37,596 nucleotides of DNA from Syntrophomonadaceae bacterium (GTDB lineage: Bacteria > Bacillota > Dethiobacteria > DTU022), in contig PUKR01000172.1 of assembly GCA_003552365.1 (NCBI GenBank), positions 1-37,596 on the forward strand, given 5' to 3'. Each line of letters opens with the position of its first letter. The stretch's first letter is position 1. This document shows positions 5,213 to 31,969 of this stretch, piece by piece. Below the pieces are notes generated by a model. The model was not told the DNA's origin and ran no database searches. It saw only the letters and a list, made by a program, of their open reading frames with translations. The translations under genes were made by a program, and so were the position numbers.

Positions 5213-5248
5213 TTGAGTTAACATTCTGGTACCCCGAGTACATTTTAC

Positions 5249-10354: not shown

Positions 10355-10447
10355 AAACAAACCCCCTGTAAAGGACTCGCCGAATATGGTAGCCCGACAA
10401 GAACTTTGTGAGGCTTTTAAAACCATCTTCGTGCGGTTGTCAGTCTA
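10355..10447 (-). promoter_or_regulatory. structured 5' UTR of rplU, possibly an L21-leader-type element
   Basis: About 90 nt separate the predicted promoter from rplU, with GACAA...UUGUC pairing potential. Firmicutes are known to carry an L21 leader here, but I cannot verify the fold by eye. Confidence 0.3.
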
Positions 10448-10453
10448 TTGCTG

Positions 10454-16861: not shown

Positions 16862-17947
16862 TTACTGCAATTCGACAACGTCTGCAATCCCGCTCGAGAC
16901 CTCAATTTCCAGATCCGGGGTGACCAGGATCCCCTCCACTCCTGCTTTTTGCTCTATCAAATCCATCCCCTGTACCGGGCCAAGAATAAACAAAGTTGTA
17001 GAAAGCACATCGGCTTCCAAAACAGATTCAGCTAAAATAGTAATGCTGGCCAGATCTTCGGTCGGCATCCCGGTATCGGGATCAAGAATATGGTGGTAGC
17101 GAGTTTCGTTTTCTGTGAAGGAACGTTCATAGTCACCGGAAGTAGCTACCATCTGATCAGATACAGGAATAACTGCAATCATCTCCTGTTCCTGCCGGGG
17201 ATTGCGCACCCCGATTCGCCATGGTTCTCCATCAGGCCTGCTACCGATAACCCCAATATCCCCCCCGGCATTTACAAATGCATGCTCCACCTCTTTTTGT
17301 AGAAGCATTTCGATAGCCTGGTCAACAATGAAACCCTTGGCAATACCGCCCAGCTCAAGGGCCATACCTTCTTCGGACAAATAGATTGTTGACGCTTCAT
17401 GATCAAGTTCTATTTTTTCATAATCAACCAGGGGCAGCTTTTCTTCAAGCTGCCCGGCAGAAGGAACCCGGTAATCATGTTCCAAAAACCCCCATAAGTC
17501 AGTTATTGGAGCAATAGTGGGATCGAACGCGCCGTCACTGAGTTCGGCATACTCCAGGGCCTTCTCGGTCACATAAAAAACTTCTTTGCTTACTTCAACC
17601 GGTTTTTTCCCTGCCTGTTCATTTACCCTGTAAACGTCGCTGTCTTCAAGAGTCCGGCTAAAGAGAGCTTCCAGGCGCTCCATTTCATCAAAAACCTGGT
17701 CCTTAATTTGGGCGGCATATCTTTCACCGATGGTTTGAAAACGTAAATCCACCACCGTATCCATGGTAATTTGAGTATATTCATAGCTATCAAGGGCATA
17801 ATAAGCGTTGTAATAAAAATATCCGCCCAGGATAATTACTACAACCAGAGGAATAATATAAATAGGCTTGATATATTTCTTCCGGAGAGATTTATCTTGA
17901 TTATTGCCTTGCTCCGAGCTTTGCATATACATACCTAAAGGGCCCAC
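16862..17947 (-). CDS. apbE: FAD:protein FMN transferase ApbE with N-terminal membrane anchor
   Basis: ApbE motifs seen are MDTVV, GAFDPTIAP, GGIAKGF, NAGGDI and ATSGDYER. The start is uncertain among GTG 17947, ATG 17932 and ATG 17926. Confidence 0.9.
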   Translation of the reverse strand: MGPLGMYMQSSEQGNNQDKSLRKKYIKPIYIIPLVVVIILGGYFYYNAYYALDSYEYTQITMDTVVDLRFQTIGERYAAQIKDQVFDEMERLEALFSRTLEDSDVYRVNEQAGKKPVEVSKEVFYVTEKALEYAELSDGAFDPTIAPITDLWGFLEHDYRVPSAGQLEEKLPLVDYEKIELDHEASTIYLSEEGMALELGGIAKGFIVDQAIEMLLQKEVEHAFVNAGGDIGVIGSRPDGEPWRIGVRNPRQEQEMIAVIPVSDQMVATSGDYERSFTENETRYHHILDPDTGMPTEDLASITILAESVLEADVLSTTLFILGPVQGMDLIEQKAGVEGILVTPDLEIEVSSGIADVVELQ

Positions 17948-17971: not shown

Positions 17972-19960
17972 TTAGCGACCAAAATAAAAGATAACCAGCA
18001 TTACACCGCCAAGCAGTAAAGCCAGGATCAACTGGTCAAAATTCAGGTTTTTTGAAGTCCACTCAACCGGATTAAACCGGAGCCATTTTGCCAGACCGCT
18101 CCTTTCAACCTCAGCTTCTTCATCTTGTCCGGACCTGTCAGCCATTCGCCGCATCGCACTTCCGGTTTTCATGTAACCTTCATCTATACTTTCATCCAAA
18201 CTCCTGGAGCGATAAGCAATTTTTTTCGCTGCTTCACCGGTCTTAGCATAGCTTTGATCTATGCTTTCATCCAGGCTCTTGGTACGGTAAGCAATTCTTT
18301 TCGCCGCATCACCGGTTTTAGCATAGCTTTCATCTATGGTTTCGTCAAGAATTCGCGTCCGCTCGGCCAAACCGCGACCGATTTCAGCGGAACGTTCAAA
18401 AGCGGTATCAATGCCTTTATCCATGGCAGTAATATACTGGCAGAATTCATAAAGTTTCCGGCCCGATCTCATGTAGAAATTATCTACAGAAGAATCAATC
18501 GAGGTTCCATAATGACAAAACCGATTATAGACGCCCTGGCCAAGGGGTTTAAAAATTAAGTACTCCACGCTAACCCACGGAGGCAGGTGAATGCCTTTCT
18601 TCAGTAATGAAGATAAATTTAAGAAAAGCAGTAACCCGGCAATGCCAAGTTGAAGGGCTCCCCAGATCCCGCTGGTGGTATAAATATTATGAACCTCAGA
18701 AGCATAAGGGATTAAAGGCGATACCAGTTGAGGATAAACACCCAGGATAATACAGAAAGCAGCAGTCCCTACAATGGCTACCTGGCTGGCCAGCGAAGTT
18801 TTATTTTTAACTTCAGCCCGCCCCTTGATAAAACCAAAACCGATCAGCTTGCAAAATGAGGCAGCGGTCCCGATGCTGGCGATCATTAACATGATTTCTG
18901 CTGGTCCCAGATCATAAAAAGCATACTTTAAGAGGTACTTGCTGACATATCCGTTAAACAGCGGAATACCGGCAATAGCAAGGGCCCCAACCACTCCGCC
19001 AAATGTAACCAGCGGCATCGCCTGCCAGATACTTTGTTTTTTAGCTTCTTCTTCCTCGGAATCCTCGTGGATTAAATCGTGCAGGTCTTCAGTTCCGGTA
19101 GCATGCAAAACTGCTCCCACACTCATAAATAAAAGCGCTTTATACAACATGTGGTTAACCACATGCAAAAGCGCACCGTCTGTGGCAAGTTCGGTTGCCA
19201 AACCCACACCTGCGACCATGTAACCAACCTGGCTGATAATATGATAAGAAAGCAAGCGGCGCATATTGTGCTGCAGCATAGCCATGGTAACCCCGGCAAC
19301 AGCCATAGAAGCTCCCATGTACATAATCACTTCGTTGGGAGGCAAGATCCTGGCAATGGCAAATACCCCAATTTTTGTAGTTAATCCGGCCAAAATAACA
19401 CTGGAAGGGAAATTAGCGGAGGGGTACCCCCGGGCTACCCATATATGCAGGGGCAAGAAAGCAGCTTTAAAACCAAAGCCAACTATAAAGAAGGTTAACC
19501 CACCCTGCGGGGCCTGCAAAATAAAATTGCCTGCTTCCTGGTAGTGCAGAAGAATGCCAAGCAAAACTATCAGTCCACCTGCCAGGTGAAACGAAAGGAA
19601 ATATAACCCGGCATAGATAGCATCAGGGGTTTTTCGCAGCAAGATCAGCCCGGCTGTTGACAAAGTAAGCATTTCCCAGAAAATAAAAAGAGTAATAAAA
19701 TTATCGGAAAAAACAATACCTATAGCGCTGGCCAAAGCAGCAAGGGCCACCGCCTGTTCGCTTGGCTTTGAATGCTGCAACCCGTAAAGCAAGGACAATG
19801 AACCGACCAGGGTAAAACCAAGGACGGCAATTCTGCTGTAGGGGTGTTCATCAAAAGAAATTGGTGCTAAAACAGCATCCCCGACAACATAACTGCCCAG
19901 CTCAATTCCGGTCCAACCGTAATAAGCAAGGTAGATTAAAGTCCCAATTACCCCGATCAT
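17972..19960 (-). CDS. NuoL/MrpA-like antiporter-type membrane subunit (fourth of four) with long repeat-containing C-terminal arm and terminal TM anchor; probably starts upstream at a non-canonical codon (up to 20050)
   Basis: Conserved antiporter features are the TM5 Glu (FIFWEML), the TM7 Lys (GLTTKIGVFA), and HVVNHMLYKALLF. The motif WVARGYPSANFPSS replaces the usual WLPxAHxxAPxPxS. The C-terminal ~200 aa are hydrophilic repeats followed by KNLNFDQLILALLLGGVMLVIFYF. The 30 in-frame codons upstream encode a missing TM1 (IFVIAGIGIPLLLIPGVLF). Confidence 0.85.
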   Translation of the reverse strand: MIGVIGTLIYLAYYGWTGIELGSYVVGDAVLAPISFDEHPYSRIAVLGFTLVGSLSLLYGLQHSKPSEQAVALAALASAIGIVFSDNFITLFIFWEMLTLSTAGLILLRKTPDAIYAGLYFLSFHLAGGLIVLLGILLHYQEAGNFILQAPQGGLTFFIVGFGFKAAFLPLHIWVARGYPSANFPSSVILAGLTTKIGVFAIARILPPNEVIMYMGASMAVAGVTMAMLQHNMRRLLSYHIISQVGYMVAGVGLATELATDGALLHVVNHMLYKALLFMSVGAVLHATGTEDLHDLIHEDSEEEEAKKQSIWQAMPLVTFGGVVGALAIAGIPLFNGYVSKYLLKYAFYDLGPAEIMLMIASIGTAASFCKLIGFGFIKGRAEVKNKTSLASQVAIVGTAAFCIILGVYPQLVSPLIPYASEVHNIYTTSGIWGALQLGIAGLLLFLNLSSLLKKGIHLPPWVSVEYLIFKPLGQGVYNRFCHYGTSIDSSVDNFYMRSGRKLYEFCQYITAMDKGIDTAFERSAEIGRGLAERTRILDETIDESYAKTGDAAKRIAYRTKSLDESIDQSYAKTGEAAKKIAYRSRSLDESIDEGYMKTGSAMRRMADRSGQDEEAEVERSGLAKWLRFNPVEWTSKNLNFDQLILALLLGGVMLVIFYFGR
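18125..18349 (-). repeat. three in-frame tandem 75 bp repeats encoding 25 aa units (LDESIDxSYAKTGxAAKxIAYRxxS) within the arm of the fourth antiporter-like subunit
   Basis: The units span 18349-18275, 18274-18200 and 18199-18125. I translated them by hand as LDETIDESYAKTGDAAKRIAYRTKS, LDESIDQSYAKTGEAAKKIAYRSRS and LDESIDEGYMKTGSAMRRMADRSGQ. More degenerate copies extend upstream to about 18470. Confidence 0.9.
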
Positions 19961-20081
19961 AAATATATATCTTAAAACTTTCGGACCGAATAGAACTCCG
20001 GGTATTAATAATAAAGGTATTCCTATGCCTGCTATAACAAAAATATCGATTTGAGATCACTCCATTACACAGCTATTCTTT

Positions 20082-20107
20082 TACCTTTGTTGTATACCTT
20101 TGTTGTA
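20082..20107. repeat. perfect 13 bp tandem duplication (TACCTTTGTTGTA x2) in the intergenic gap between antiporter-like subunits 3 and 4
   Basis: Positions 20082-20094 and 20095-20107 are identical. On the minus strand the unit is TACAACAAAGGTA. Confidence 0.9.
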
Positions 20108-20130
20108 GATTAAAATCTTTTTAAAGTCAA
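20102..20130 (-). promoter_or_regulatory. possible internal promoter (TTGACT, 17 nt spacer, TACAAC) ahead of the fourth antiporter-like gene
   Basis: The minus strand reads TTGACT(20130-20125) ttaaaaagattttaatc TACAAC(20107-20102). The -10-like hexamer lies inside the duplicated 13-mer. Confidence 0.3.
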
Positions 20131-20181
20131 GCACCAGATAAAAGGGCCAATAGTTAAACATTTGCAAATCCAAACCAGTCA

Positions 20182-22221
20182 TCAATTGCCGTACGAAAAA
20201 ACTATAAATAATATCACTCCAAGAACAAAAGCCAGGAGCAGGTTGTCAAAATTAAGGTTTTTGATATTCCATTGATCCTGGTCCCACCAAAAAATACTGC
20301 TGCGAAACTGTTCCTTTAACCTGCGCTCCCGTTCCAGTCCTTTTCCTGTAAAGTAATAAGCCGACTGTCCGGCTTCATCCAGCGATGGTTCAGCTTCCTG
20401 CCCAGGATTATCCAGGTAAATCAAGGATTGCTCGTTGCTGCTGCTGCTATGTTCATAAAACTGCCCCAGGGCCATATCATTGATGCTGACCTCACGGAAA
20501 AAAAAAGACAGGACCGCTCGAGGCAGCGGTTCAAACACGAGTTTTTGAATGCTTAACCAGGCTGGCGGCTGCCATTCAAACCAGCCCCTGGAAACTGCCG
20601 GCAGGTAAATAAACAGGGCTAACAGGACAACAACCAGCACTGCCTCTAGGGGTTGCCAGGCGAAAAACTGGAAACCATGCAGGTATTCGATGCTTGAAGC
20701 GGCAAAATCATAGAGATGAGCTGCCGGCAATATAAAAACGTCAAGGAGCAAGTTTGGAGAAATGCCAATTCCTATCACCAAAAGAGCAAAAATAACAATC
20801 ACGAAATTAACCGATGGCGCAATCCGGTATTCCTGATCTAAATCTTCAGGGACAGGACCCAAAAAGACACCCTTAAAAAGCTTTAAAAAATAGCATATTG
20901 TTAATGCACTGGTAACTACGAAAAACCGCTCTGCCACAAAAATCCCGTAAACTTCGTGATGCTGGTATGCATATAAAAGAGCATCGTGCACCAAAGTTTT
21001 ACTGGCAAACCCGTTAAAACCGGGAATTCCTGCAATGCCAAGGGCAGCTATAGCAAAAGTAATTGCCACCAGGGGCATCTTCCGGGCCATCCCCCCGAGG
21101 CGGGATAAGTCCAGCTCGTGGGTATACATATATACTACACCAATCATAATAAAAAGCCCGGCTTTAAAAATAGCATGGTTGGCAATGTGGTAGAGCGAGC
21201 CGGAAAAACCCATTGCCCCGTCCGCTCCCATCAGCATGGCAACTCCTATCCCGGTTACAATATAACCCATTTGACTTATACTGCTGTAGGCTAATATCCG
21301 TTTAGTGTTACTTTGCAGCAAGGCCATAATCGCTCCGGCCAGCATGGTCACAATGCCAATCCACATTAAAATATTTCCACTGTTAAATACGTAAACCCAT
21401 TCCACTTCATTACCGGCTCCGGCGGGCTGAAATAGAATCAAGCTGACTCTTAAAACACCATAAGCACCGGCCTTTATCATAATCCCTGACAACAGGGCAC
21501 TGGCCGGAGAAGGGGCTACCGGGTGGGCCAGGGGAAGCCAGATGTGCAGCGGAACTATTCCGGCTTTAATACCAAAACCGATCATAAATAAAACAAAAAT
21601 AGCCGTGCGCTGGTTTCCCAATTCTTCCAACACCGGGACCATGTTAAGGTGACCGGCACTGCCAAAAAACAAGAGGATGGCAAACAGCAAAGAAAGACCG
21701 CCAATAATAGCCATGTAAAGATATAGCGATCCCGCTTTTAAAGCTTCCTGGTTTTGCTTGTGGATTACCAGGACAAAAGAGCTGAAAGTCATGATCTCGA
21801 AAAAAATAAACAAAGAAAACAGGTCGCCGGCAAAAATTACCCCCAGTATTGCACCGAGCGTAAAAATGAAAAAACTATAATAACGGCACAAATGGTGCTC
21901 GTGCTCCATGTAGGAAAAAGAAAAAATAGTTGCAAGGACCCAGATCAGGGTAATTAATAATGCAAATATCCAACCGAACAAATCAACCCTGAAATTTAAG
22001 TTGAACTGCATTAGCTCAATTAAATCGCAGCCTACTTCACCGACAAGCACCAGCGGTAAAAGCCAGATCACTCCGCCCAGTGAAAACAGCGCTGAGCATA
22101 ATACAGCAGCCTTGCGAGTGACCATCCGCTCAACAGGAACAAAATAAAGCACTATCCCGGTTAGCATAGGGACTAAAACCAGGTACAATGGTACAGAAGT
22201 ACTGTATGCTAAAGCTTCCAC
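20182..22221 (-). CDS. NuoL/MrpA-like antiporter-type membrane subunit (third of four) with C-terminal arm and terminal TM anchor
   Basis: The 679 aa protein shows FIFFEIMTF, WLPLAHPVAPSPASALLSGIMIKAGAYG and HIANHAIFKAGLF. The C-terminal ~130 aa are hydrophilic and end in KNLNFDNLLLAFVLGVILFIVFSY. The start is GTG, 8 nt after GGGGG. Confidence 0.85.
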   Translation of the reverse strand: MEALAYSTSVPLYLVLVPMLTGIVLYFVPVERMVTRKAAVLCSALFSLGGVIWLLPLVLVGEVGCDLIELMQFNLNFRVDLFGWIFALLITLIWVLATIFSFSYMEHEHHLCRYYSFFIFTLGAILGVIFAGDLFSLFIFFEIMTFSSFVLVIHKQNQEALKAGSLYLYMAIIGGLSLLFAILLFFGSAGHLNMVPVLEELGNQRTAIFVLFMIGFGIKAGIVPLHIWLPLAHPVAPSPASALLSGIMIKAGAYGVLRVSLILFQPAGAGNEVEWVYVFNSGNILMWIGIVTMLAGAIMALLQSNTKRILAYSSISQMGYIVTGIGVAMLMGADGAMGFSGSLYHIANHAIFKAGLFIMIGVVYMYTHELDLSRLGGMARKMPLVAITFAIAALGIAGIPGFNGFASKTLVHDALLYAYQHHEVYGIFVAERFFVVTSALTICYFLKLFKGVFLGPVPEDLDQEYRIAPSVNFVIVIFALLVIGIGISPNLLLDVFILPAAHLYDFAASSIEYLHGFQFFAWQPLEAVLVVVLLALFIYLPAVSRGWFEWQPPAWLSIQKLVFEPLPRAVLSFFFREVSINDMALGQFYEHSSSSNEQSLIYLDNPGQEAEPSLDEAGQSAYYFTGKGLERERRLKEQFRSSIFWWDQDQWNIKNLNFDNLLLAFVLGVILFIVFSYGN

Positions 22222-22242
22222 ACATTTTGCCCCCTTAAAAGG

Positions 22243-23784
22243 TTAAAAAATGCCACCTTCCAGGAAAAACCATGAAGTTATTTGCGACAACTCGAACTGC
22301 ACGTTTATCGGTGAAAGTCCAAACAGCAGTGTGCTTATCGCCAAAATAACCATTGGTGCCAGCATTCTCGGGGCCACATCCTGAACATTGAAATTTAAAG
22401 CATGTCCATGGCCGTGCGCATGAGCATTTGCGCCTTTATCTTCCCCAATAATTTCAAAAAAGGCGGGCACAATGATAGGCAGGTAATAAAGGGCATTTAA
22501 AAGACTGCTGATTAATAAAACTATAGCATATACAGTTATATTGGCATCAAGAGCCCCGAGGCCAAGCGTCCACTTGCTCAAAAATCCATTCAGGGGAGGA
22601 ATACCGATCATCGCGAGCGCCGCGACAGAAAAGCAGCCAAGCGTGTAGGGCATTTCCCTGCCCACTCCCCCCATATCAGAAATGAGCCTTTTACCGGTCT
22701 TCCAGATTATTGCCCCGGCAGCAAGGAAGAGGCAGCTTTTCATAATCGCATGGCAAAAAATATGGAACATAGCCCCGGTAATCGCATTTTCATTGAGGAT
22801 ACTCAAACCCAAAAGCACATAGCCCATTTGCCCCACGCTGGAATAAGCCAGGCGGCGCTTTATATCATTCTGGGTTAAAGCTACAGCAGAGCCCAGCATT
22901 ATGGTAATCACCGCTAAAACTCCCAGAACAATATCCCAGTTATTTGCCTGCATTACCTCGACCGAAAAGGCATGGAAAATAACCCTGAAAAGGCCGTATG
23001 CTCCGGTTTTCAGCATAACCCCGGACAAAAGGGCGCTGGCCGGTGATGGAGCAACAGGGTGAGCATCGGGAAGCCAGACATGGAGAGGAAACATCCCGGC
23101 CTTCATGCCAAAACCTATGATAAAGCAAATAAAAGCTAAAAATGAAAGGAAGGTAACTTCATCGATAATCGTCCCAACGCCCAGCGATACTGTTCCGCCA
23201 AGCTCGAAAGTAATAATTATCCCTAAGAATAAGGCTAAACCACCAATTATAGTCATAACCAGGTATTTATACCCTGCTTTGAGTGCCTGTTCAGTTTCTT
23301 CGTGGACAACCAAAATGTAAGAAATCAGGGACATCAGCTCAAAAAACACAAAGAGGGTAAAAAAGTCGCCGGCTAAAAATATTCCCAGGCAGCTGCCAAG
23401 GGTAAAAACAAGGACCGGGTAGTAACGGCTTCCTCCGTGCTCTTCCGCCATATAGTCAAGGGAATAGATTGTACAAAGCAACCAGATAAAGGAAGCAATT
23501 GCTGCCAGGTTAAAACTCAGGATATCCAGCCGCAATGATATTTCCAGGTCGGGGAGAATTTCAAACAGGGTTAACTGTATAATTTCCCCGTTCATAACCA
23601 CAGGGTAGAGTGAAATAGTTAATATAAATGTAACCGTACTCGTTCCCAGGGTCAGGGCATTTCTCAATTTATCCGATCGACCCCCGGCCGACATGATAAC
23701 CGGGGTCATTACTATTGGAAATAAAATTACAAATAGTATAACCGCGATTGCTGTTGCTTCATCCACCGAAGCCACCTCCATCAT
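22243..23784 (-). CDS. mnhD: MrpD/NuoM/N-like antiporter-type membrane subunit (second of four)
   Basis: The 513 aa protein shows FVFFELMSL, WLPDAHPVAPSPASALLSGVMLKTGAYG and HIFCHAIMKSCLF. An alternative GTG start at 23766 lies 6 nt after an internal GGAGGTG. Confidence 0.9.
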   Translation of the reverse strand: MMEVASVDEATAIAVILFVILFPIVMTPVIMSAGGRSDKLRNALTLGTSTVTFILTISLYPVVMNGEIIQLTLFEILPDLEISLRLDILSFNLAAIASFIWLLCTIYSLDYMAEEHGGSRYYPVLVFTLGSCLGIFLAGDFFTLFVFFELMSLISYILVVHEETEQALKAGYKYLVMTIIGGLALFLGIIITFELGGTVSLGVGTIIDEVTFLSFLAFICFIIGFGMKAGMFPLHVWLPDAHPVAPSPASALLSGVMLKTGAYGLFRVIFHAFSVEVMQANNWDIVLGVLAVITIMLGSAVALTQNDIKRRLAYSSVGQMGYVLLGLSILNENAITGAMFHIFCHAIMKSCLFLAAGAIIWKTGKRLISDMGGVGREMPYTLGCFSVAALAMIGIPPLNGFLSKWTLGLGALDANITVYAIVLLISSLLNALYYLPIIVPAFFEIIGEDKGANAHAHGHGHALNFNVQDVAPRMLAPMVILAISTLLFGLSPINVQFELSQITSWFFLEGGIF

Positions 23785-23845
23785 TCATTAATGTCCTTTT
23801 TATTATATATTGCAACTTTATATCAATCTAAATACATTGCTTAAA

Positions 23846-25348
23846 TTAAAATAAAAGAGCTATGGCATTTTCCAGCAAGGTTAATGTAGGGCCGGGGGCA
23901 ACTCCGAAAAAGATAACTGCGAGAACCCCAATTACCAGAGTAACCAACATTTGCCGCGGCACCGGTTTAGCTTCATGTTCGAAAGTTTCCTGGTGCATAA
24001 AAGCATTAACAATAATCGGCATATAATAAACTGCATTTAACAAACTGCTGGCCAGGATAATAACCACAAAAAAGGGTCTCCCAACTTCAAGAGCGCCGAG
24101 AGCCAGGTACCATTTACTGATTAAACCGCCGGTTCCCGGTATACCAATCATCGAAGCGGCCCCTACAGTAAAAGCAATCATAGTTAAAGGCAAAACCTGC
24201 CCGACCCCGGCAAGCTGCTTAATTTGACGGATACCGGTCGAATAAATAATCACTCCGGCTACCATAAATAACATAGATTTCATGAGAGCGTGTACGAGTA
24301 AATGGTAAAAACCGCCGGTCAAGGCAATTGTATCATCCAGCCCAATTCCTAGAAACACATAACCAATCTGGCCGATGCTGGAATATGCGAGCATCTTCTT
24401 CAAATCTACCTGCACCATGGCAAATATCGAGCCAAACATGATTCCGGCAGTAGACAACCAGAGCACAATTTCATTTAGCGGTATCGAGTCAAGTAACGGT
24501 CGCGGGAAAAGCTGGTAGAACATAATAAACAGCGCAAATGCATATATTTTAATTACCACACCGGAAAGCATTGCGCTCGATGGCGATGGCGCCGAAGCAT
24601 GGGCATCGGGGAGCCATACATGCAGTGGGAAAAGAGCGGCTTTCGTCCCAAAAGCAACAATGAACAGCGACGAGGCGGCGAACATGTTGTTCGGATACTG
24701 TTCCACGGCAGCCGGAAGGGCTTCATTTACCAGGTCATAATTAAATTGCCCGGTGACCATGTAAAGCATGGCCACTCCGAGCAAGAAACACCCTGTACCC
24801 ATGGCGCTTAAAATTAAGTACTTAAAACTGGCTTCCAGGCAAGCGCGATCTTCTTTGATCGAAATAATTGCACAGGCTGAAATAGCGCATATCTCCATGA
24901 GCACAAACAGGTTGAACAGGTCGTTGGTGAGGGCTATCCCGGCCATAGAGCCGACCAGGAGGGCGTAAAGGGAATAATACCAGCCCAGCATCTCTGTTTT
25001 CAGCTCATGTTCCAAATCTTTTAAAGCATAAACCATGATCCACAAGCTTACCGCAAGCACGACAAGGAGCATGTAGACCCTGAGGAAGTCTACCTTGAAT
25101 TCAACGCCAAATGGCGGCGGCCACCCCCCCATGTGGTAATAAAAAGTCCCTCCCTGGTGAACCTGGATCAATAAAACAATTCCCATCACCAGCGAAAGAG
25201 ATAAGGCAGTGATTAAAGCCGGAGCGCTTGTTTTCCTGGCCCAACGATACAAAATGGGTGATAAAAAGGCTATGCCTAATAGAATTGCTATGATTAATGC
25301 TGGAAAATGCTGTGCTAGACCCACTACTCCTGGCTCCTTATCAGGCAA
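23846..25348 (-). CDS. mnhD: MrpD/NuoM/N-like antiporter-type membrane subunit (first of four)
   Basis: The sequence shows FVLMEICAIS, WLPDAHASAPSPSSAMLSGVVIKIYAFA and HLLVHALMKSMLF. The track start is TTG 25348. GTG 25324 (TAGTG overlap with the mnhC stop, 9 nt after AAGGAG) is more likely. Confidence 0.9.
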   Translation of the reverse strand: MPDKEPGVVGLAQHFPALIIAILLGIAFLSPILYRWARKTSAPALITALSLSLVMGIVLLIQVHQGGTFYYHMGGWPPPFGVEFKVDFLRVYMLLVVLAVSLWIMVYALKDLEHELKTEMLGWYYSLYALLVGSMAGIALTNDLFNLFVLMEICAISACAIISIKEDRACLEASFKYLILSAMGTGCFLLGVAMLYMVTGQFNYDLVNEALPAAVEQYPNNMFAASSLFIVAFGTKAALFPLHVWLPDAHASAPSPSSAMLSGVVIKIYAFALFIMFYQLFPRPLLDSIPLNEIVLWLSTAGIMFGSIFAMVQVDLKKMLAYSSIGQIGYVFLGIGLDDTIALTGGFYHLLVHALMKSMLFMVAGVIIYSTGIRQIKQLAGVGQVLPLTMIAFTVGAASMIGIPGTGGLISKWYLALGALEVGRPFFVVIILASSLLNAVYYMPIIVNAFMHQETFEHEAKPVPRQMLVTLVIGVLAVIFFGVAPGPTLTLLENAIALLF

Positions 25349-25692
25349 ATTTCGTCGTAATCCACTGTGCCATAATAACGGTATATTTTAACGATTAAAC
25401 TAAGCGCATAAGCGGTAATACTGATGGCCACAACAATCCCGGTGAGCATAAGCGAACTCGGAAGGGGGTTTATATAAATGACTTCTTTCCCCTGCTGAAC
25501 AATCGGCGCTTGCCCTCCGTAGGTGTAACCGACGGCAACAAAGAGCAAAAATACCGAGGTATCCATTATATTCATGGCAATTACCTTCTTGATCAGGTTC
25601 GAATGGGTAAGCATGGTATGCATCCCGATAACAAAAAGGAGAATCGCCGCCATATAGTAATAGTTATGCAGCACCTTGATTAACATTTCCAT
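25324..25692 (-). CDS. mnhC: Mrp subunit C (NuoK-like)
   Basis: This 122 aa, three-TM protein reads KKVIAMNIMDTSVFLLFVAVGY...LTGIVVAISITAYALSL, typical of MnhC/MbhG. Confidence 0.9.
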   Translation of the reverse strand: MEMLIKVLHNYYYMAAILLFVIGMHTMLTHSNLIKKVIAMNIMDTSVFLLFVAVGYTYGGQAPIVQQGKEVIYINPLPSSLMLTGIVVAISITAYALSLIVKIYRYYGTVDYDEICLIRSQE

Positions 25693-25693
25693 A

Positions 25694-26083
25694 TTACTCT
25701 TCCCCCTCGATAATGTTAAAGAAAAAACTCACAATAGTGCTAGCTACTTTAAATCCGAGAAAAACAGTAATGATCATGATCGCACCAGAACTAAAGAGTT
25801 CTCCAGCTTCCCCCATGGGGAATCCGGCAGCCCGGTTGGCTAAAAAATTTCCTCCTACAGCTACTCCCACCAGTCCGGTGAGTACAAATCCAAGAGCGCC
25901 GCCACTTTCCAGGATGGAAGAAACATCTTCTGAAATCTGTCTTGCCCCCACTTCAAGGTTGAAAGACACGGCTAAAAGAACAAGGCTCGCACCAAAAATA
26001 GCTCCGCCGGAAAACCCACCGCCAGGGGAAAGATGGCCGTGCAGCACAATATAGATACCATAAACCTGGATAAATGGGACCAC
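25694..26083 (-). CDS. mnhB: Mrp subunit B domain protein (MbhF-like); true start probably upstream (CTG 26119 or ATT 26125)
   Basis: HGHLSPGGGFSGGAIFGASLVL is the MnhB signature. Family-typical N-terminal residues (EDQIVRITSRLVVPFIQVYG) are encoded in frame upstream of the only canonical start, GTG 26083, and there is no ATG, GTG or TTG before the in-frame TAG at 26126-26128. Confidence 0.85.
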   Translation of the reverse strand: MVPFIQVYGIYIVLHGHLSPGGGFSGGAIFGASLVLLAVSFNLEVGARQISEDVSSILESGGALGFVLTGLVGVAVGGNFLANRAAGFPMGEAGELFSSGAIMIITVFLGFKVASTIVSFFFNIIEGEE

Positions 26084-26135
26084 AAGCCTGCTGGTTATAC
26101 GAACAATTTGGTCTTCCAGTACAATCTACCCCCAG

Positions 26136-26474
26136 TTACGAGTGAGATTTCAAGGTGGCAACCACCGCGGCAATTGCTACAAAAAGCACAGTAGCTTCAC
26201 CCAGGGTATCAAAAGCACGGTAATCAATGATCACGCTGCTGACTATATTCACCGCCCCGGTATCGACAACCCCCTGTTCCATGTAGCGGACAGGGATCTC
26301 GTTAAATACCGGGTTGTTGGGATCGCCAAAAGGCGGCATCTCGGCAACAGTAAAGCTAAAGAAAAAGCCAATCAAGCCGACAAGCAATATTGTAAACACA
26401 CCCCTTGCCTGGAGGCGCAGAAGGTAGCGCATCGCAAAAACAGCCGCGATAATAATAAACAGAATATCTTCCAC
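26136..26474 (-). CDS. MbhE-like small membrane protein (corresponds to the MrpA C-terminal segment)
   Basis: The sequence AVNIVSSVIIDYRAFDTLGEATVLFVAIAAV matches the N-V-V-x-x-I-L-x-D-[FY]-R-G-x-D-T-L-G-E segment of MrpA C-terminal and MbhE proteins. The start is GTG, 8 nt after GAGGGGGG. Confidence 0.7.
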   Translation of the reverse strand: MEDILFIIIAAVFAMRYLLRLQARGVFTILLVGLIGFFFSFTVAEMPPFGDPNNPVFNEIPVRYMEQGVVDTGAVNIVSSVIIDYRAFDTLGEATVLFVAIAAVVATLKSHS

Positions 26475-26499
26475 TTAAACATCCCCCCTCACAGGCTCC

Positions 26500-26751
26500 C
26501 TATTCAGCCCGCCTGGTTTTGCTGATTGTCGCGATCAGCAGCAAGGTAGTAACCCCGGTACCAAGGGCAGCTTCCACCATGGCCACATCGGGTGCGCTCA
26601 GCTGCTGCCAGATAATGGCCATGATCAAACCAAAGGAAGCAAAAACAATTACCGCGCTGAGCATATCACGAATCTGGGCCACGGCGATAGCACATACCAC
26701 TAAAAATAACAGTAATAAAGCATTCAACACTTCTGTTAAAATGTCAGTCAT
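26500..26751 (-). CDS. DUF4040 / MbhD-like membrane protein
   Basis: IRDMLSAVIVFASFGLIMAIIWQQLSAPDVAMVEAALGTGVTTLL carries the APDVA-x-x-EA-x-x-G signature. I prefer the ATG at 26751 (8 nt after AGGAG, ATGACTGA overlap with the mnhG stop) over the track's GTG at 26760. Confidence 0.75.
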   Translation of the reverse strand: MTDILTEVLNALLLLFLVVCAIAVAQIRDMLSAVIVFASFGLIMAIIWQQLSAPDVAMVEAALGTGVTTLLLIATISKTRRAE

Positions 26752-27064
26752 TTGAATCACTCCTGCCTATCTGCGGCTTGATCCCCGTTGTATAAGCGAC
26801 CCGGGCAATAACATGGGCTGCCGTCGGGTTAGTGATCAATACAAATAAAATCAGTAGAGCAAGCCTGATCGCCACCGCCATTTCACTTTGCAGCGCAAGG
26901 GAAAGCAGCACCAAACCGGCTCCGAGTGTATCACACTTTGATGTGGCATGCAGGCGGTTGTATACATCAGGCAGGCGCAGCAAACCAACTATAGCTACAA
27001 CCAGGAAAAAAAGACCGATGATCATTGAAACGATTGACAAGATGTACAAAATAGTCTCGAGCAT
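26744..27064 (-). CDS. mnhG: Mrp subunit G
   Basis: GLLRLPDVYNRLHATSKCDTLGAGLVLL is the MnhG/PhaG signature. The protein is 106 aa with three TM segments. Confidence 0.85.
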   Translation of the reverse strand: MLETILYILSIVSMIIGLFFLVVAIVGLLRLPDVYNRLHATSKCDTLGAGLVLLSLALQSEMAVAIRLALLILFVLITNPTAAHVIARVAYTTGIKPQIGRSDSND

Positions 27065-27072
27065 CGTATTAG

Positions 27073-27354
27073 TTAATCCAGCGCCCCTTTCTCCAGGTAC
27101 TTGGCAACACCGATGGTAAAAATAAAACCCATTAAAGCATAAATCATGGCAATATCAAGGAAGTAAACCTGTTCATAGATCCTGGCTATCAGGGTAATAA
27201 TGATCAGCGTATTTGTCGTAATAATATTAATAGCGACAACCCGGTCGGGCGCGGTGGGCCCGGCAAGCGCCCTGATCATGGCAACAAATATTGTCAGCAT
27301 AACCAGGATTGCCCCTACCGGAAATAAAATATCAAGGATTTGCTCATAAATCAC
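27073..27354 (-). CDS. mnhF: Mrp subunit F
   Basis: IRALAGPTAPDRVVAINIITTN is the MnhF signature. The GTG start overlaps the mnhE stop as TAGTG. Confidence 0.85.
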   Translation of the reverse strand: MIYEQILDILFPVGAILVMLTIFVAMIRALAGPTAPDRVVAINIITTNTLIIITLIARIYEQVYFLDIAMIYALMGFIFTIGVAKYLEKGALD

Positions 27355-27857
27355 TACTTATCGCCCTCCATTTCTTTAAGCCTGGTCATCAGGTGCCAGT
27401 CCTGGATGGCAATACCACTTTCTTTGGTGAGGGCATGGACCAGGTAGTCTTTTTCGTCGGCAAGGACTGTCAATGTCCCCGGGCACATAGTAATAGAGTT
27501 GCCGAAAAGAGTGCGACTGCCAGTGGTCTCCAGATCCACCTCAACCGAAACGAGGTTGGGGTAAATCGGCATTTTCGGGTGCAGCACAAGCCAGGCTATC
27601 TGGAAATTGGCAATAAATATTTCTTTAACCAGCACCAGTATATAGCCGGTTAGCCAGAGCACATTTTTCAAGGTAACCGCCGGCCTTTCCTGGGAAGTGA
27701 TCAACAGGGTCCGATTAAAGTAGACTACAAAGGCCGCCGACACCAGGCCAACAACCAGCTGTGGCAAATCGAAGGTCCCGCTTACAGCAATCCAAAACCC
27801 TAATAACAAGAGGGTAAAACCGATATAATTAAGCCAATTGCTTTTCAATTTATCCAT
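27354..27857 (-). CDS. mnhE: Mrp subunit E
   Basis: The sequence reads WLNYIGFTLLLLGFWIAVSGTFDLPQLVVGLVSAAFV...ITMCPGTLTV, where ITLTPGT-like is the MnhE signature. I prefer the ATG at 27857; the track ORF begins at TTG 27923 with no RBS. Confidence 0.8.
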   Translation of the reverse strand: MDKLKSNWLNYIGFTLLLLGFWIAVSGTFDLPQLVVGLVSAAFVVYFNRTLLITSQERPAVTLKNVLWLTGYILVLVKEIFIANFQIAWLVLHPKMPIYPNLVSVEVDLETTGSRTLFGNSITMCPGTLTVLADEKDYLVHALTKESGIAIQDWHLMTRLKEMEGDK

Positions 27858-27935
27858 CACCAGGTTTCGAATTAGATTTTTTTTAAAATAAAATATAATA
27901 AATATTTCACATGCCAGGCTCAAAAATGAAAACTT

Positions 27936-28808
27936 CTAAGTGCCCTTTTCAGACGATACAGCTTCTGCTTTCTCTTTATTTTGTTCGATCGCACCGGGCA
28001 TTATCGGCAGCGCAGTCCGCGGGTAAATTGTCCCTGGCGGACATACCGGGACACACCTGCCGCAATCATCACATTTATCGATATCGATAACTGCAAGCTT
28101 ATCATCCATCTCTATAGCTTCCTGCGGACACTCTTTTACACAAGCCCTGCAGCCTATGCATCCAACCGAACAGGCCTTTGAAACTGTCTTACCCCGATCC
28201 TGCGAACTGCACAAAACCAGGTGACCTTGCCCTGAACGCCTGGGGAGAGTCTGGATCAGATCTCGCGGGCAGGCTTCTACGCATAATCCGCAGCCGGTGC
28301 ACGCATCAGGATCAACAATTGGCAAACCATGAGATCCGATTTCTATCGCTTCAAACGGGCAGACCCTAACACAATTACCCAGCCCGAGGCAGCCGTAACC
28401 ACAAGCTTTAAATCCTCCGTTAAACCTCCCCGCTACCTCGCAATCCTCTACTCCGTCATATATAAACAAGTCAGCAGCATGTTCGTTATCACCGATACAA
28501 AATACGGTCGCTATTAGCGGTTCCGAGTCGGTTACTTCGAGTCCCAGTTCTTCAGCGATAGCCCGGGTGGTTTCTTCTCCACCGGGAATACATGCGTTAG
28601 CTGCCACTTCTCCTTTGACTACCGCCGCCGCAAAATTAACACAACCGGCATAACCGCAAGCTCCGCAATTAGCTCCTGGTAAGATATCTTTAACTGCATC
28701 CACTCTCGGATCAGTTTTTACCGCAAAAACACGTGCTGCAATAGACAATAGCAGTCCAAAAAGAAGGCCGATCAAGCCTAAAGCAATAATTGCATATGCT
28801 ATCTGCAC
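27936..28808 (-). CDS. rnfB: Rnf complex subunit B (membrane-anchored polyferredoxin)
   Basis: An N-terminal TM is followed by LPGANCGACGYAGC and several CxxCxxCxxxCP clusters (CTGCGLCVEACP, CIGCRACVKECP, CDDCGRCVPVCP). Confidence 0.93.
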   Translation of the reverse strand: MQIAYAIIALGLIGLLFGLLLSIAARVFAVKTDPRVDAVKDILPGANCGACGYAGCVNFAAAVVKGEVAANACIPGGEETTRAIAEELGLEVTDSEPLIATVFCIGDNEHAADLFIYDGVEDCEVAGRFNGGFKACGYGCLGLGNCVRVCPFEAIEIGSHGLPIVDPDACTGCGLCVEACPRDLIQTLPRRSGQGHLVLCSSQDRGKTVSKACSVGCIGCRACVKECPQEAIEMDDKLAVIDIDKCDDCGRCVPVCPPGTIYPRTALPIMPGAIEQNKEKAEAVSSEKGT

Positions 28809-28853
28809 GTTTTAAATCACCTCGCACCAATGTTTAACATTAAAGATATTCGC

Positions 28854-29435
28854 CTACAGCGTTAACATACCACTAAAGCCAAGGAAGGCCAACGACAATA
28901 TTCCGGCAGTGATTAAAGTAATTGCGGACCCCTGCAGGGCTTCCGGAATTTTTGCCATCTCTAATCTTTCCCGAATTCCGGCCATGATAACAAGGGCCAG
29001 TGAAAACCCGATCGAAGCGGCAATGCCAAAAACAACCGCTTCAACAAAAGTAAATTCTTCCCTGACGGCAAGCAAAGCAACCCCCATAATCGCGCAATTT
29101 GTGGTAATTAACGGTAAAAAGATCCCCAAACCCTGGTACAGGGTGGGACTTATTTTTCGCAGCGCCGTTTCTACCAGTTGAACCAGTGAAGCAATAACCA
29201 AAATAAACGTGACAATCTGCAGATATTCCAACTCATATGGCACCAAGACAAAAGTATTAAGAATCCAGGTTACAAGCGTAGCCATGGTCATTACGAATAT
29301 CACGGCCATACTCATACCGATTGCGGTTTCCATTTTACGAGAAACTCCGATAAATGGGCAAATCCCCAAAAACCGTTGCAAAACAAAATTGTCGACCAAA
29401 ATATAGATAAAAATTATTGCCAGCAGTCTTTCCAT
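28854..29435 (-). CDS. rnfA: Rnf complex subunit A
   Basis: The 193 aa protein shows NFVLQRFLGICPFIGVS and LGIFLPLITTNCAIMG, the RnfA/NqrE signature. Confidence 0.95.
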   Translation of the reverse strand: MERLLAIIFIYILVDNFVLQRFLGICPFIGVSRKMETAIGMSMAVIFVMTMATLVTWILNTFVLVPYELEYLQIVTFILVIASLVQLVETALRKISPTLYQGLGIFLPLITTNCAIMGVALLAVREEFTFVEAVVFGIAASIGFSLALVIMAGIRERLEMAKIPEALQGSAITLITAGILSLAFLGFSGMLTL

Positions 29436-29499
29436 AATAACCTCCTGATACCGGTTATTTTATTTAAACTAAAAATTTACGTTTTCAAGGATATCCCGG

Positions 29500-31949: not shown

Positions 31950-31969
31950 ATCCTTCCCCGATCAAAGGC

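What the first reader, a model, noticed from the sequence alone, without database searches (positions are those of the whole stretch)
17972..25348. Four consecutive antiporter-like (NuoL/M/N/MrpD) subunits, two with C-terminal arms ending in a shared KNLNFD + TM anchor
What the sequence shows:
- Four paralogous genes lie in tandem (23846-25348, 22243-23784, 20182-22221, 17972-19960+).
- All four retain the TM5 Glu (FVLMEI, FVFFEL, FIFFEI, FIFWEM), the TM7 Lys (IKIYAFA, LKTGAYG, IKAGAYG, TKIGVFA) and the H-x-x-x-H-x-x-x-K-x-x-LF segment. All are therefore plausibly functional ion channels.
- The last two each carry a hydrophilic extension of about 130-200 aa that ends in a nearly identical element: W-x-x-KNLNFD-x-L-x-LA followed by one TM helix (EWTSKNLNFDQLILALLLGGVMLVIFYF versus QWNIKNLNFDNLLLAFVLGVILFIVFSY).
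- The fourth subunit has diverged in the usually invariant WLPxAHxxAPxPxS segment, which reads WVARGYPSANFPSS.

Established knowledge: canonical Mrp has two antiporter-like subunits, Mbh has one and complex I has three. Only NuoL/MrpA has a lateral amphipathic helix that ends in a TM anchor.

Inference: two separate lateral arms in a four-channel array would be an unusual membrane-arm architecture.
Basis: partly seen in the sequence, partly recalled or inferred. Interest (0 to 1): 0.72.

Follow-up and report, generated by a model that had tools for sequence, protein, structure and literature searches.

The report
Four-channel, two-armed Mrp antiporter
A soda-lake bacterium's sodium/proton antiporter genes sit inside its Rnf operon and have grown from the usual two channel subunits to four, two of which carry their own clamp-like arm; this is a new variant of the complex-I/Mrp membrane arm, not a new kind of machine.

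Summary
Four intact PF00361 genes lie in tandem on the minus strand. All four keep the charged residues of a working channel and evolve under strong purifying selection.

D1 and D2 are 14-helix MrpD-type subunits. D3 and D4 add the NuoL/MrpA-type TM15, amphipathic arm and TM16. Both end in W-x-x-KNLNFD plus a membrane anchor.

Context changes the reading. The genes belong to an Mbh-type ("split MrpA") Mrp module: mrpEFG-mbhD-mbhE-mnhB-mrpC-D1-D2-D3-D4. This module sits between rnfB and apbE, an arrangement conserved across haloalkaliphilic Bacillota.

Relatives form a series of two, three, four or five antiporter-like genes. One genome holds only a relic of D3. The last gene of the array carries the four-to-six-repeat arm wherever it was checked. 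That arm is built of exact 25-residue (seven-turn) repeats. D3 has lost these repeats wherever D4 is present.

The anchor motif is a hallmark of this long-subunit family. It is absent from solved MrpA and NuoL structures.

AlphaFold could not place the arms, so the two-arm geometry remains an inference.

Arrays of four or five subunits are already known in complex I variants, which use one lengthened helix. Several arm-bearing subunits in one array appear undescribed.

Verdict: a new variant of a known kind, of moderate to high interest.

The parts
27936..33313 (-). rnfC (31970-33313), rnfD (30969-31949), rnfG (30122-30976), rnfE (29500-30147), rnfA (28854-29435) and rnfB (27936-28808): a complete Rnf gene set directly upstream of the mrp genes.
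   Evidence: Pfam hits to RnfC_N/Complex1_51K, NQR2_RnfD_RnfE, FMN_bind, Rnf-Nqr (twice) and FeS/Fer4. The same order is found in relatives.
25324..27923 (-). Small-subunit module of an Mbh-type Mrp antiporter: mrpE (27354-27923), mrpF (27073-27354), mrpG (26744-27064), mbhD (26500-26760), mbhE (26136-26474), mnhB (25694-26083) and mrpC/nuoK-like (25324-25692).
   Evidence: Pfam hits to MNHE, MrpF_PhaF, PhaG_MnhG_YufB, MbhD, MbhE, MnhB and Oxidored_q2. MbhD plus MbhE correspond to the C-terminal domain of MrpA (PMC7419157).
23846..25348 (-). D1: a short, 14-helix MrpD/MbhH-type antiporter-like subunit of 500 aa.
   Evidence: PF00361, E = 3e-61. Best PDB sequence hits are MbsH and MbhH. Key residues E152, K236, K267, H349/H353/K357 and K412 are present. 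dN/dS is 0.03-0.05. It is the orthologue of the single short subunit in Natranaerobiales.
22243..23784 (-). D2: a second short MrpD/MbhH-type subunit of 513 aa.
   Evidence: PF00361, E = 5e-67. Best PDB hit is MbhH. Key residues E149, K228, K259, H341/H345/K349 and K404 are present. dN/dS is about 0.05. It is present in three-gene sister lineages and absent from Natranaerobiales.
20182..22221 (-). D3: a long NuoL/MrpA(N)-type subunit of 679 aa. It has a 14-helix core, TM15 (about residues 522-545) and a shortened arm (about residues 553-650), followed by the KNLNFD motif and a TM anchor.
   Evidence: PF00361 plus Proton_antipo_N. Best Foldseek matches are MrpA 7qru_A, 9a6h_A and 6z16_A. AlphaFold models the core at high confidence and the tail below pLDDT 50. 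D3 is the orthologue of the 759-806 aa terminal subunit of relatives, which carries five repeats. It is duplicated in L008/L010 and reduced to a relic in L001.
20185..20262 (-). D3 anchor element: K654-N-L-N-F-D659 followed by a TM helix (residues 660-677).
   Evidence: Read directly from the sequence. N655 is nearly invariant across 99 homologues.
20051..20181 (-). D3-D4 spacer. It contains a conserved TTGACT (20130-20125), a 17-nt gap, TACAAC (20107-20102) and an extended Shine-Dalgarno sequence GGAGTGAT (20063-20056).
   Evidence: Alignment of seven orthologous spacers shows these blocks are invariant while the rest varies. The generic promoter scan did not call this site. Its function is inferred only.
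17972..20050 (-). D4: a long, divergent NuoL/MrpA(N)-type subunit. It is 692 aa from the ATC at 20050, or 662 aa from the ATG at 19960. The TM7 region reads WVARGYPSANFPSS.
   Evidence: PF00361, E = 9e-38. The upstream 30 codons are conserved, with dN/dS of 0.05-0.2, and are modelled at pLDDT 96-98. Best Foldseek matches are MrpA, NdhF and NuoL. D4 is absent from the three-gene sister lineages. Its subfamily signature is conserved in 102 homologues.
18125..18499 (-). D4 arm: five exact 25-residue tandem repeats, at residues 488-612 of the 662-aa ORF. The consensus is LDESIDxxYxKTGxAAKxIAYRxxS.
   Evidence: Repeat starts fall at residues 488, 513, 538, 563 and 588. Hydrophobicity periodicity peaks at 100-101 degrees coherently over 125-161 residues, so 25 residues make 7 turns. 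AlphaFold predicts long helices at 495-558, 566-612 and 616-640, at low confidence. Repeat number varies from 4 to 5 among orthologues.
17975..18052 (-). D4 anchor element: K637-N-L-N-F-D642 followed by a TM helix.
   Evidence: The motif N-[LIM]-[ND]-F-D plus a TM helix recurs throughout the long-subunit family. No PDB chain matches it.
16862..17947 (-). apbE (flavin transferase), the last gene of the rnf-mrp-apbE unit.
   Evidence: Pfam ApbE, E = 8e-92. It follows the last antiporter-like gene in every relative examined.

Best explanation
**What it is (shown).** The locus encodes an Mbh-type, "split MrpA" Mrp (CPA3) cation/proton antiporter module. It is embedded in an rnfCDGEAB...apbE operon of an uncultured haloalkaliphilic Bacillota bacterium from soda-lake sediment. 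Its set of antiporter-like subunits has been enlarged stepwise: two in Natranaerobiales, three in sister lineages, four here and five in some relatives.
- D1 and D2 are MrpD-type subunits.
- D3 is the former terminal MrpA(N)/NuoL-type subunit.
- D4 is a paralogue of a separate long-subunit subfamily, appended at the end of the array.

**How the parts assemble (inferred).** All four subunits assemble in gene order into one elongated membrane arm: small-subunit Na+ module, then D1, D2, D3 and D4. D4 is the distal, NuoL-like end. Its long amphipathic arm of 25-residue repeats runs back along the cytoplasmic face. D3 keeps a shortened arm as a local clamp. Both arms dock through the shared W-x-x-KNLNFD anchor helix on equivalent paralogous surfaces.

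**What it does (inferred).**
- Four proton paths per Na+ site raise the H+/Na+ ratio. This makes the exchange more electrogenic.
- That suits acidifying the cytoplasm and expelling Na+ at about pH 10 in molar Na+.
- The driving membrane potential would be built by the co-transcribed Na+-pumping Rnf complex.
For: Identity of the module:
- Pfam assigns every gene.
- The best PDB sequence hits for all four D subunits are MbhH, MbsH and MrpD/A.

Functional integrity:
- All channel residues are present.
- dN/dS is at most about 0.06, and the tails and the D4 N-terminus are also constrained.

NuoL/MrpA-type architecture of D3 and D4:
- They align with NuoL TM15 and the start of HL.
- Foldseek's top hits are MrpA, NdhF and NuoL.
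- Helical arms and a terminal TM helix are predicted.
- The repeat arm has coherent 100-degree amphipathic periodicity.

Evolutionary series with the same flanking genes:
- Two D genes in Natranaerofaba and Natranaerobius.
- Three D genes in L168-L170.
- Four D genes in the window and about nine relatives.
- Five D genes in L008, L010 and L095.

Support for one complex rather than alternative assemblies:
- Only the last gene carries the four-to-six-repeat arm.
- D3 lost its repeats exactly where D4 follows it: 759-783 aa with five repeats in sister lineages, against 676-679 aa with none here.

Published context:
- The 25-residue repeat equals the roughly 26-residue HL insertion reported to accommodate one extra pumping subunit in complex I variants (PMC9040806).
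- Electrogenic exchange with H+ exceeding Na+ is required at high pH (PMC7419157).
- An Rnf-Mnh joint locus was noted and interpreted in the same way for N. carboxydovora (PMC8359318).
Against: - No structural evidence shows that the four subunits form one complex. AlphaFold monomer models give low confidence for both arms.
- Arm length does not track subunit number. Terminal arms have four to six repeats whether the operon has two, three, four or five D genes. A five-repeat helix of about 190 A is far longer than needed to span one MrpD in Natranaerobiales.
- D3 can be lost, as the relic in L001 shows.
- D4 has a non-canonical ATC start and a conserved promoter-like box upstream. Its stoichiometry or timing may therefore differ from the rest.
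- Long subunits also occur as orphan genes.
- No transport or stoichiometry data exist for any member.
Confidence: 0.5

Rival explanations
1. Alternative terminal subunits. D3 and D4 are interchangeable MrpA-like end caps, so the operon yields two or more isoforms. Examples are core-D1-D2-D3 and core-D1-D2-D4, possibly with different ion specificity or pH optimum. D4 is tuned separately.
For: - A conserved promoter-like box and an invariant weak ATC start lie upstream of D4.
- D3 is dispensable in L001, where D1-D2-D4 remains.
- Sister lineages work with D1-D2-D3 alone.
- Both long subunits carry the same anchor motif, so they could dock at the same site.
Against: - D3 lost its repeat arm only in genomes that have D4. 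This is unexpected if D3 still served as a terminal subunit.
- The genes are contiguous, and no terminator scored above background.
- The five-gene variants add yet another short-armed D3.
Confidence: 0.2
2. Stand-alone transporters. D4, and perhaps D3, act as single-subunit Na+(K+)/H+ antiporters that merely sit in the operon. The arm and anchor would serve self-association, not clamping of neighbours.
For: - Members of both long subfamilies occur as orphan genes with no mrp neighbours: P0119 in Natranaerofaba and P0221 in Dethiobacter.
- An orphan MrpA-like protein of N. thermophilus, Nt-Nha (Nther_0107), showed electrogenic antiport on its own in E. coli vesicles (PMC2764116).
Against: - Whether Nt-Nha belongs to this family could not be tested.
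- D4 keeps its position between D3 and apbE in all close relatives.
- The NuoL-type arm and TM16 are, in every solved homologue, a device for binding neighbouring subunits (PMC8165549).
Confidence: 0.12
3. Rnf-Mrp supercomplex. The Mrp-like arm is physically attached to Rnf, so that ferredoxin:NAD+ electron transfer drives, or is driven by, ion movement through four antiporter-like channels. The over-long repeat arms would bridge to Rnf.
For: - The mrp module is inserted between rnfB and apbE. This arrangement is kept across deeply separated lineages, including Natranaerobiia and the soda-lake MAGs labelled Syntrophomonadaceae.
- The arms are much longer than needed to span the antiporter-like subunits.
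- MBH, MBS and complex I all arose by joining a redox module to an Mrp module (PMC8165549).
Against: - No NuoH/MbhM-like or NuoB/D-like connecting subunit is present.
- Rnf has its own Na+ path.
- Long-armed subunits also occur away from rnf.
- Gene adjacency alone is explained by co-regulation, as proposed in PMC8359318.
Confidence: 0.08
4. Redundant or decaying duplicates. One or more of the four paralogues are non-functional copies on their way to loss.
For: - D3 is reduced to a 43-codon relic in L001.
- D4 has an altered TM7 segment and no canonical start codon.
Against: - All four ORFs are intact, and all channel residues are present.
- dN/dS is at most about 0.06 against three orthologue sets, with synonymous sites saturated.
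- D4's TM7 variant is conserved in 102 homologues.
- The four-gene array persists in about nine to ten genomes.
Confidence: 0.02

Closest known systems
Group 1 Mrp antiporter (Anoxybacillus flavithermus 6z16, Bacillus pseudofirmus 7qru)
   Same: - It has the same subunit families: E, F, G, B, C and D, plus an MrpA-like long subunit with TM15, a lateral helix and TM16.
- D3 and D4 models match MrpA best.
- The presumed reaction, electrogenic Na+/H+ exchange, is the same.
   Different: - Here MrpA is split into a long antiporter-like subunit plus MbhD and MbhE.
- There are four antiporter-like subunits instead of two.
- Two of them carry arms.
- The arm is made of 25-residue repeats and ends in an N-L-N-F-D anchor that solved MrpA chains lack.
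- The genes lie inside an rnf operon.
Mrp module of MBH and MBS from Pyrococcus furiosus (6cfw, 6u8y)
   Same: - All four D subunits are closest in sequence to MbhH or MbsH.
- MbhD, MbhE, MbhF and MbhG equivalents are present.
- MbsH' likewise carries TM15, HL and TM16 on an antiporter-like subunit (PMC8165549).
   Different: - No hydrogenase or sulfane-reductase module is present, and there is no MbhM/NuoH-like subunit.
- MBH has one antiporter-like subunit and MBS has two, each with a single lateral helix.
Complex I variants with extra pumping subunits: Nitrospira '2M' complex I, rhizobial 'green' complex I and Ca. Manganitrophaceae Complex_I_3 (PMC9040806)
   Same: - These have four or five antiporter-like subunits in one array.
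- Extra subunits are accommodated through the lateral helix.
- The reported insertion of about 26 residues per added subunit matches the 25-residue repeat found here.
   Different: - They are redox-driven complexes with a single lengthened helix on the terminal subunit.
- Here there is no Nuo redox module.
- Several subunits each carry their own arm.
- Arm length does not follow subunit number.
Group 3 and anaerobe-type mrp clusters with extra mrpD or mrpB genes: cyanobacteria, Ca. Nitrospira alkalitolerans, NPL-UPA2 'MrpEFGBBBCD, MrpDD', N. thermophilus (PMC5703873, PMC7784846, PMC6305446)
   Same: - Gene order is irregular.
- There are three 'mrpB-like' genes, which correspond to mbhD, mbhE and mnhB.
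- Additional mrpD or mrpA-like genes are present.
   Different: - These clusters are recorded only as annotations.
- The split into short and arm-bearing subunits, the repeat arms, the anchor motif and the variation from two to five genes have not been described in the papers I could search.
Rnf-Mnh joint locus of Natranaerofaba carboxydovora (PMC8359318)
   Same: - The synteny is the same: rnfCDGEAB, mrpEFG, mbhDE, mnhB, mrpC, D genes, apbE.
- It has the same proposed role of linking Na+ and H+ gradients.
   Different: That locus has only two antiporter-like genes: one short and one long with five repeats.

Membership tests
Antiporter-like subunit family (PF00361; NuoL/M/N, MrpA/D, MbhH) | Significant match to the Proton_antipo_M domain | tested here: met
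   All four match, with E-values from 9e-38 to 5e-67.
Antiporter-like subunit family (PF00361; NuoL/M/N, MrpA/D, MbhH) | Charged axis: TM5 Glu, TM7 Lys, TM8 Lys/His and TM12 Lys/Glu | tested here: met
   Alignment with E. coli NuoL/M/N shows all four positions occupied in D1-D4.
Antiporter-like subunit family (PF00361; NuoL/M/N, MrpA/D, MbhH) | 14-helix core with two inverted 5-helix repeats and broken helices TM7 and TM12 | tested here: inconclusive
   AlphaFold cores of D3 and D4 have high confidence and superpose on MrpD/MrpA at TM-scores of 0.8-0.9 relative to the target. D1 and D2 were not modelled.
NuoL/MrpA(N)-type long subunit | TM15, a cytoplasmic amphipathic lateral helix and a TM16 anchor after the 14-helix core | tested here: inconclusive
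   Sequence alignment with NuoL TM15 and the start of HL, predicted helices plus a terminal TM helix, amphipathic periodicity and best fold matches to MrpA/NuoL/NdhF all agree. However, arm pLDDT is low, and the lateral position along neighbouring subunits cannot be seen in a monomer model.
NuoL/MrpA(N)-type long subunit | TM11 H-x3-H-x3-K segment (NuoL H334/H338/K342) | tested here: met
   It is present in D3 and D4, and also in D1 and D2. It therefore does not discriminate between the types here.
Mrp (CPA3) antiporter complex | Genes for MrpE, F, G, B and C, plus MrpD-type and MrpA-type subunits, in one cluster | tested here: met
   Pfam hits to MNHE, MrpF_PhaF, PhaG_MnhG_YufB, MnhB, Oxidored_q2 and MbhD+MbhE (equivalent to the MrpA C-terminal domain), plus D1-D4.
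Mrp (CPA3) antiporter complex | Na+(K+)/H+ antiport activity that requires the assembled complex | not testable with these tools
   This needs expression in E. coli KNabc or proteoliposomes.
MBH/MBS/complex I type redox-driven complexes | NuoH/MbhM-like membrane connector and NuoB/D-like catalytic subunits encoded with the Mrp module | tested here: not met
   No such ORF lies in the operon or its flanks. The neighbours are Rnf subunits, ApbE, an Hpre_diP_synt_I-like protein, Maf and RadC.
Rnf complex | The six genes rnfC, D, G, E, A and B | tested here: met
   All six have strong Pfam matches. Physical association with the Mrp module was not testable.

The most novel reading that the evidence does not exclude
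The Mrp-like arm is not a free-standing antiporter. It is the ion-translocating arm of an Rnf-Mrp supercomplex, a third independent union of a redox module with an Mrp module after MBH/MBS and complex I. The over-long 25-residue-repeat arms, each repeat about one subunit wide, tie a freely extendable chain of two to five proton channels to Rnf. Ferredoxin/NAD+ chemistry would then be geared to a variable number of ions.
Probability: 0.08. Interest if true: 0.9.

Novelty: new variant of a known kind. Interest (0 to 1): 0.6.

Why it matters
[quoted passage not shown] So is the link between the number of antiporter-like subunits and ion stoichiometry.

This lineage offers a natural series with two, three, four or five channel subunits in the same operon and the same genomic context. 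It includes:
- a natural D3 deletion
- arms that differ by exact 25-residue units
- internal subunits that keep a trimmed arm

These features make three questions directly testable by heterologous expression and cryo-EM:
- Does each added subunit add one H+ per cycle?
- Can arm-bearing subunits be daisy-chained?
- What does arm length actually measure?

The finding also ties the Na+-pumping Rnf complex to pH homeostasis in extreme haloalkaliphilic anaerobes.

Tried and rejected
1. **Repeat number as a ruler for subunit number: rejected.**
   - Terminal arms have four or five repeats with two, three, four or five D genes.
   - The window and L003 have one more repeat than other four-gene relatives.
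   - Sources.

2. **D4 starting at an in-frame GTG, or needing a frameshift: rejected.**
   - The GTG is part of an extended Shine-Dalgarno sequence, GGAGTGAT.
   - A 1-nt indel lies in the spacer between it and the start.
   - The ATC is invariant in the orthologues.

3. **KNLNFD anchor as a common feature of ordinary MrpA or NuoL: rejected.**
   - A profile of 37 anchors finds nothing in PDB sequences at E below 1.
   - A search with the D4 tail finds only 40 clusters among 1.84 billion representatives. Those I compared with earlier hit lists or judged by length are long MrpD-like proteins or fragments; not all 40 were inspected individually.

4. **Pseudogene decay in the window: rejected** by dN/dS.

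5. **Promoter and terminator scan of the operon:** no signal above shuffled controls.

6. **AlphaFold monomer models:** they could not place either arm.

7. **Link to Nt-Nha (Nther_0107), the experimentally characterised protein:** could not be made. The last homologue search returned no N. thermophilus orthologue.

8. **Phylogeny against MrpA, MrpD, MbhH and Hyf reference clades:** not built, because only the E. coli NuoL/M/N sequences could be fetched. PDB bit scores were used instead.

Full report
**Observation**

The region holds four consecutive minus-strand ORFs:
- D1, 23846-25348, 500 aa
- D2, 22243-23784, 513 aa
- D3, 20182-22221, 679 aa
- D4, 17972-19960, 662 aa

All four match PF00361, with E-values from 9e-38 to 5e-67. 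They are 31-39% identical to each other. D3 and D4 align end to end, including their C-terminal extensions.

I aligned the four proteins with E. coli NuoL, NuoM and NuoN, fetched. All four carry the following residues:
- the TM5 Glu
- the TM7 Lys, in the G-x-K-A-A segment
- the TM8 Lys
- the TM11 H-x3-H-x3-K segment
- the TM12 Lys

The true TM7 Lys is also there.

NuoL reads WLADAMAGPTPVS and NuoN reads WTPDVYQGAPAPVS. D4's version is itself conserved across 102 D4-type homologues.

Against three sets of orthologues, dN is 0.06-0.21 with saturated dS. This gives dN/dS of at most about 0.06 for all four genes, and the tails are also constrained. None of the four is decaying in this genome.

**True start of D4**

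The 30 codons upstream of the annotated ATG are conserved at the protein level in all orthologues. One orthologue lacks the ATG altogether. In the window, L001 and L002, a stop codon lies just upstream, and no ATG, GTG or TTG is available.

An alignment of the D3-D4 spacers shows:
- an invariant GGAGTGAT, an extended Shine-Dalgarno sequence
- a spacer of 8-9 nt that contains a 1-nt indel
- an invariant ATCGA

The start is therefore most likely ATC at 20050. AlphaFold models this extra helix at pLDDT 96-98. Its dN/dS is 0.05-0.2.

The same spacer holds a conserved TTGACT-N17-TACAAC box. D4 may therefore be expressed at its own level. This is an inference.

**Context**

The four genes end an Mbh-type Mrp module: mrpE, mrpF, mrpG, mbhD, mbhE, mnhB and mrpC. 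MbhD plus MbhE correspond to the C-terminal domain of MrpA (PMC7419157). MrpA is therefore split here, and a "long" antiporter-like subunit is its N-terminal counterpart.

The module sits between rnfB and apbE in a complete rnfCDGEAB operon. No promoter or terminator signal stood out above shuffled controls.

The closest relatives are MAGs from soda-lake sediment labelled Syntrophomonadaceae. The window's own contig comes from such a metagenome.

**Variation among relatives**

With the same flanking genes (apbE, an Hpre_diP_synt_I-like gene, maf, radC), relatives form a series:

| Lineage | D genes | Notes |
|---|---|---|
| Natranaerofaba carboxydovora, Natranaerobius trueperi | 2 | One short D1-like gene and one long gene of 765-806 aa |
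| L168-L170 | 3 | D1, D2 and a 759-783 aa D3 orthologue; no D4 |
| Window and about nine relatives | 4 | D1-D2-D3-D4 |
| L008, L010, L095 | 5 | Two intact D3-type genes in tandem |
| L001 | 3 | D1-D2-D4, with a 43-codon D3 relic |

The relic in L001 matches two separate pieces of D3. It is followed by the normal D3-D4 spacer.

A different Bacillota cluster without rnf has three D4-type long subunits. Long subunits also occur as orphan genes.

**The arms**

D4's extension contains five exact 25-residue repeats, starting at residues 488, 513, 538, 563 and 588.
- Most orthologues have four repeats.
- Terminal long subunits of distant relatives have four to six.
- Twenty-five residues make seven helical turns.
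- The hydrophobicity spectrum peaks at 100-101 degrees coherently over 125-161 residues. This is what a long, straight amphipathic helix needs.

The repeat length matches the roughly 26-residue insertions reported in the lateral helices of complex I variants that accommodate an extra pumping subunit (PMC9040806).

Repeat number does not follow the number of D genes, so I rejected the simple ruler idea. What does hold is a different pattern. In every array I checked, the last gene carries the repeat arm, with four to six repeats in most terminal subunits. D3 has lost its repeats exactly in the genomes where D4 follows it (676-679 aa against 759-783 aa). This pattern favours one complex in which D4 took over the distal position.

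AlphaFold results for the two long subunits:

| Model | Confident part | Arm |
|---|---|---|
| D3 | Core, up to about residue 555 | pLDDT below 50 for residues 578-656; one 29-residue helix; a terminal TM helix |
| D4 | Core | Helices 495-558, 566-612 and 616-640; pLDDT falls from about 77 to about 40 |

Foldseek places both models nearest to MrpA, then NdhF and NuoL. The geometry of the arms along neighbouring subunits remains untested.

**The anchor motif**

W-x-x-K-N-L-N-F-D followed by a TM helix recurs, with gradual relaxation, through the long-subunit family.
- A profile of 37 anchors finds no PDB chain at E below 1.
- A search with the D4 tail finds only 40 clusters among 1.84 billion representatives. 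Those I compared with earlier hit lists or judged by length are long MrpD-like proteins or fragments; I did not inspect all 40 individually.

The motif is therefore a family hallmark, not a general MrpA feature.

**Mechanism**

I consider it most likely (confidence about 0.5) that the products form one elongated arm: the Na+ module, then D1, D2, D3 and D4. D4's arm would run back along the cytoplasmic face, and D3's trimmed arm would act as a local clamp.

Four proton paths per Na+ site would raise the H+/Na+ ratio and the electrogenicity of exchange. This is required at high pH (PMC7419157). The exchange would be driven by the potential built by the co-transcribed Rnf complex. A link between the two gradients was already proposed for the Natranaerofaba locus (PMC8359318).

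Rival readings:
- alternative terminal subunits (0.2)
- stand-alone long subunits, following the precedent of Nt-Nha (0.12; PMC2764116)
- an Rnf-Mrp supercomplex (0.08)
- decaying paralogues (0.02)

**Novelty**

Three things are already on record:
- extra mrpD-like genes in "group 3" and anaerobe-type clusters (PMC5703873, PMC7784846, PMC6305446)
- complex I variants with four or five pumping subunits
- a published review describing one lateral helix per complex, with length scaling with subunit number (PMC8165549)

I found no description of the following:
- several arm-bearing subunits in one array
- arms built of 25-residue repeats
- the N-L-N-F-D anchor
- the series of two to five genes in a fixed rnf-mrp-apbE frame

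I rate this a new variant of a known kind, with interest 0.6.

Noticed in passing
window 4931-5222 (-), tRNA at 4978-5052 (-): A complete tRNA-Ala(GGC) gene lies inside the T-box leader upstream of leuS (2409-4895). The leader's short loop after stem III is replaced by an 88-nt insert that holds the tRNA. Scores are 111 bits for the T-box model and 68.9 bits for the tRNA model, and ARAGORN agrees. I know of no description of a tRNA nested in a T-box leader.
   Followed up: partly
window 20048-20130 (-): D4 appears to start at an invariant non-canonical ATC (20050-20048), after an extended Shine-Dalgarno sequence GGAGTGAT (20063-20056). A conserved TTGACT-N17-TACAAC box (20130-20102) sits in the otherwise variable D3-D4 spacer. 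This suggests separately tuned expression of the last antiporter-like subunit.
   Followed up: partly
L001 9637-9790: One relative carries a 43-codon in-frame relic of D3 (MEAVVNNIGFGIKAGIVSLHIWLPLAYPTVPSVVLFIFFSYGN*). It is made of two separated D3 fragments, so it is a natural D3 deletion between intact D2 and D4. An assembly artefact cannot be fully excluded.
   Followed up: yes
window 30122-30976 (-); L168 1045-2205; L169 642-2114: RnfG is long (284 aa) and has two FMN_bind stretches. In sister lineages it reaches 386-490 aa, with further repeated FMN_bind segments.
   Followed up: no
L081 10001-11860; L084 10001-12349: Long arm-bearing antiporter-like subunits also occur as orphan genes far from any mrp cluster. 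Examples are a D4-type gene in Natranaerofaba carboxydovora and a D3-type gene with six repeats in Dethiobacter alkaliphilus. These may relate to the stand-alone antiporter Nt-Nha of N. thermophilus (PMC2764116).
   Followed up: partly
window 16255-16818 (-): A membrane protein of the Hpre_diP_synt_I family (PF07456) follows apbE in every rnf-mrp-apbE locus examined. The conserved linkage suggests a role connected with flavin handling for Rnf.
   Followed up: no
window 10366-10448 (-): An L21 leader (RF00559, 38.1 bits, just above the gathering score) lies upstream of rplU and rpmA. It looks ordinary.
   Followed up: no
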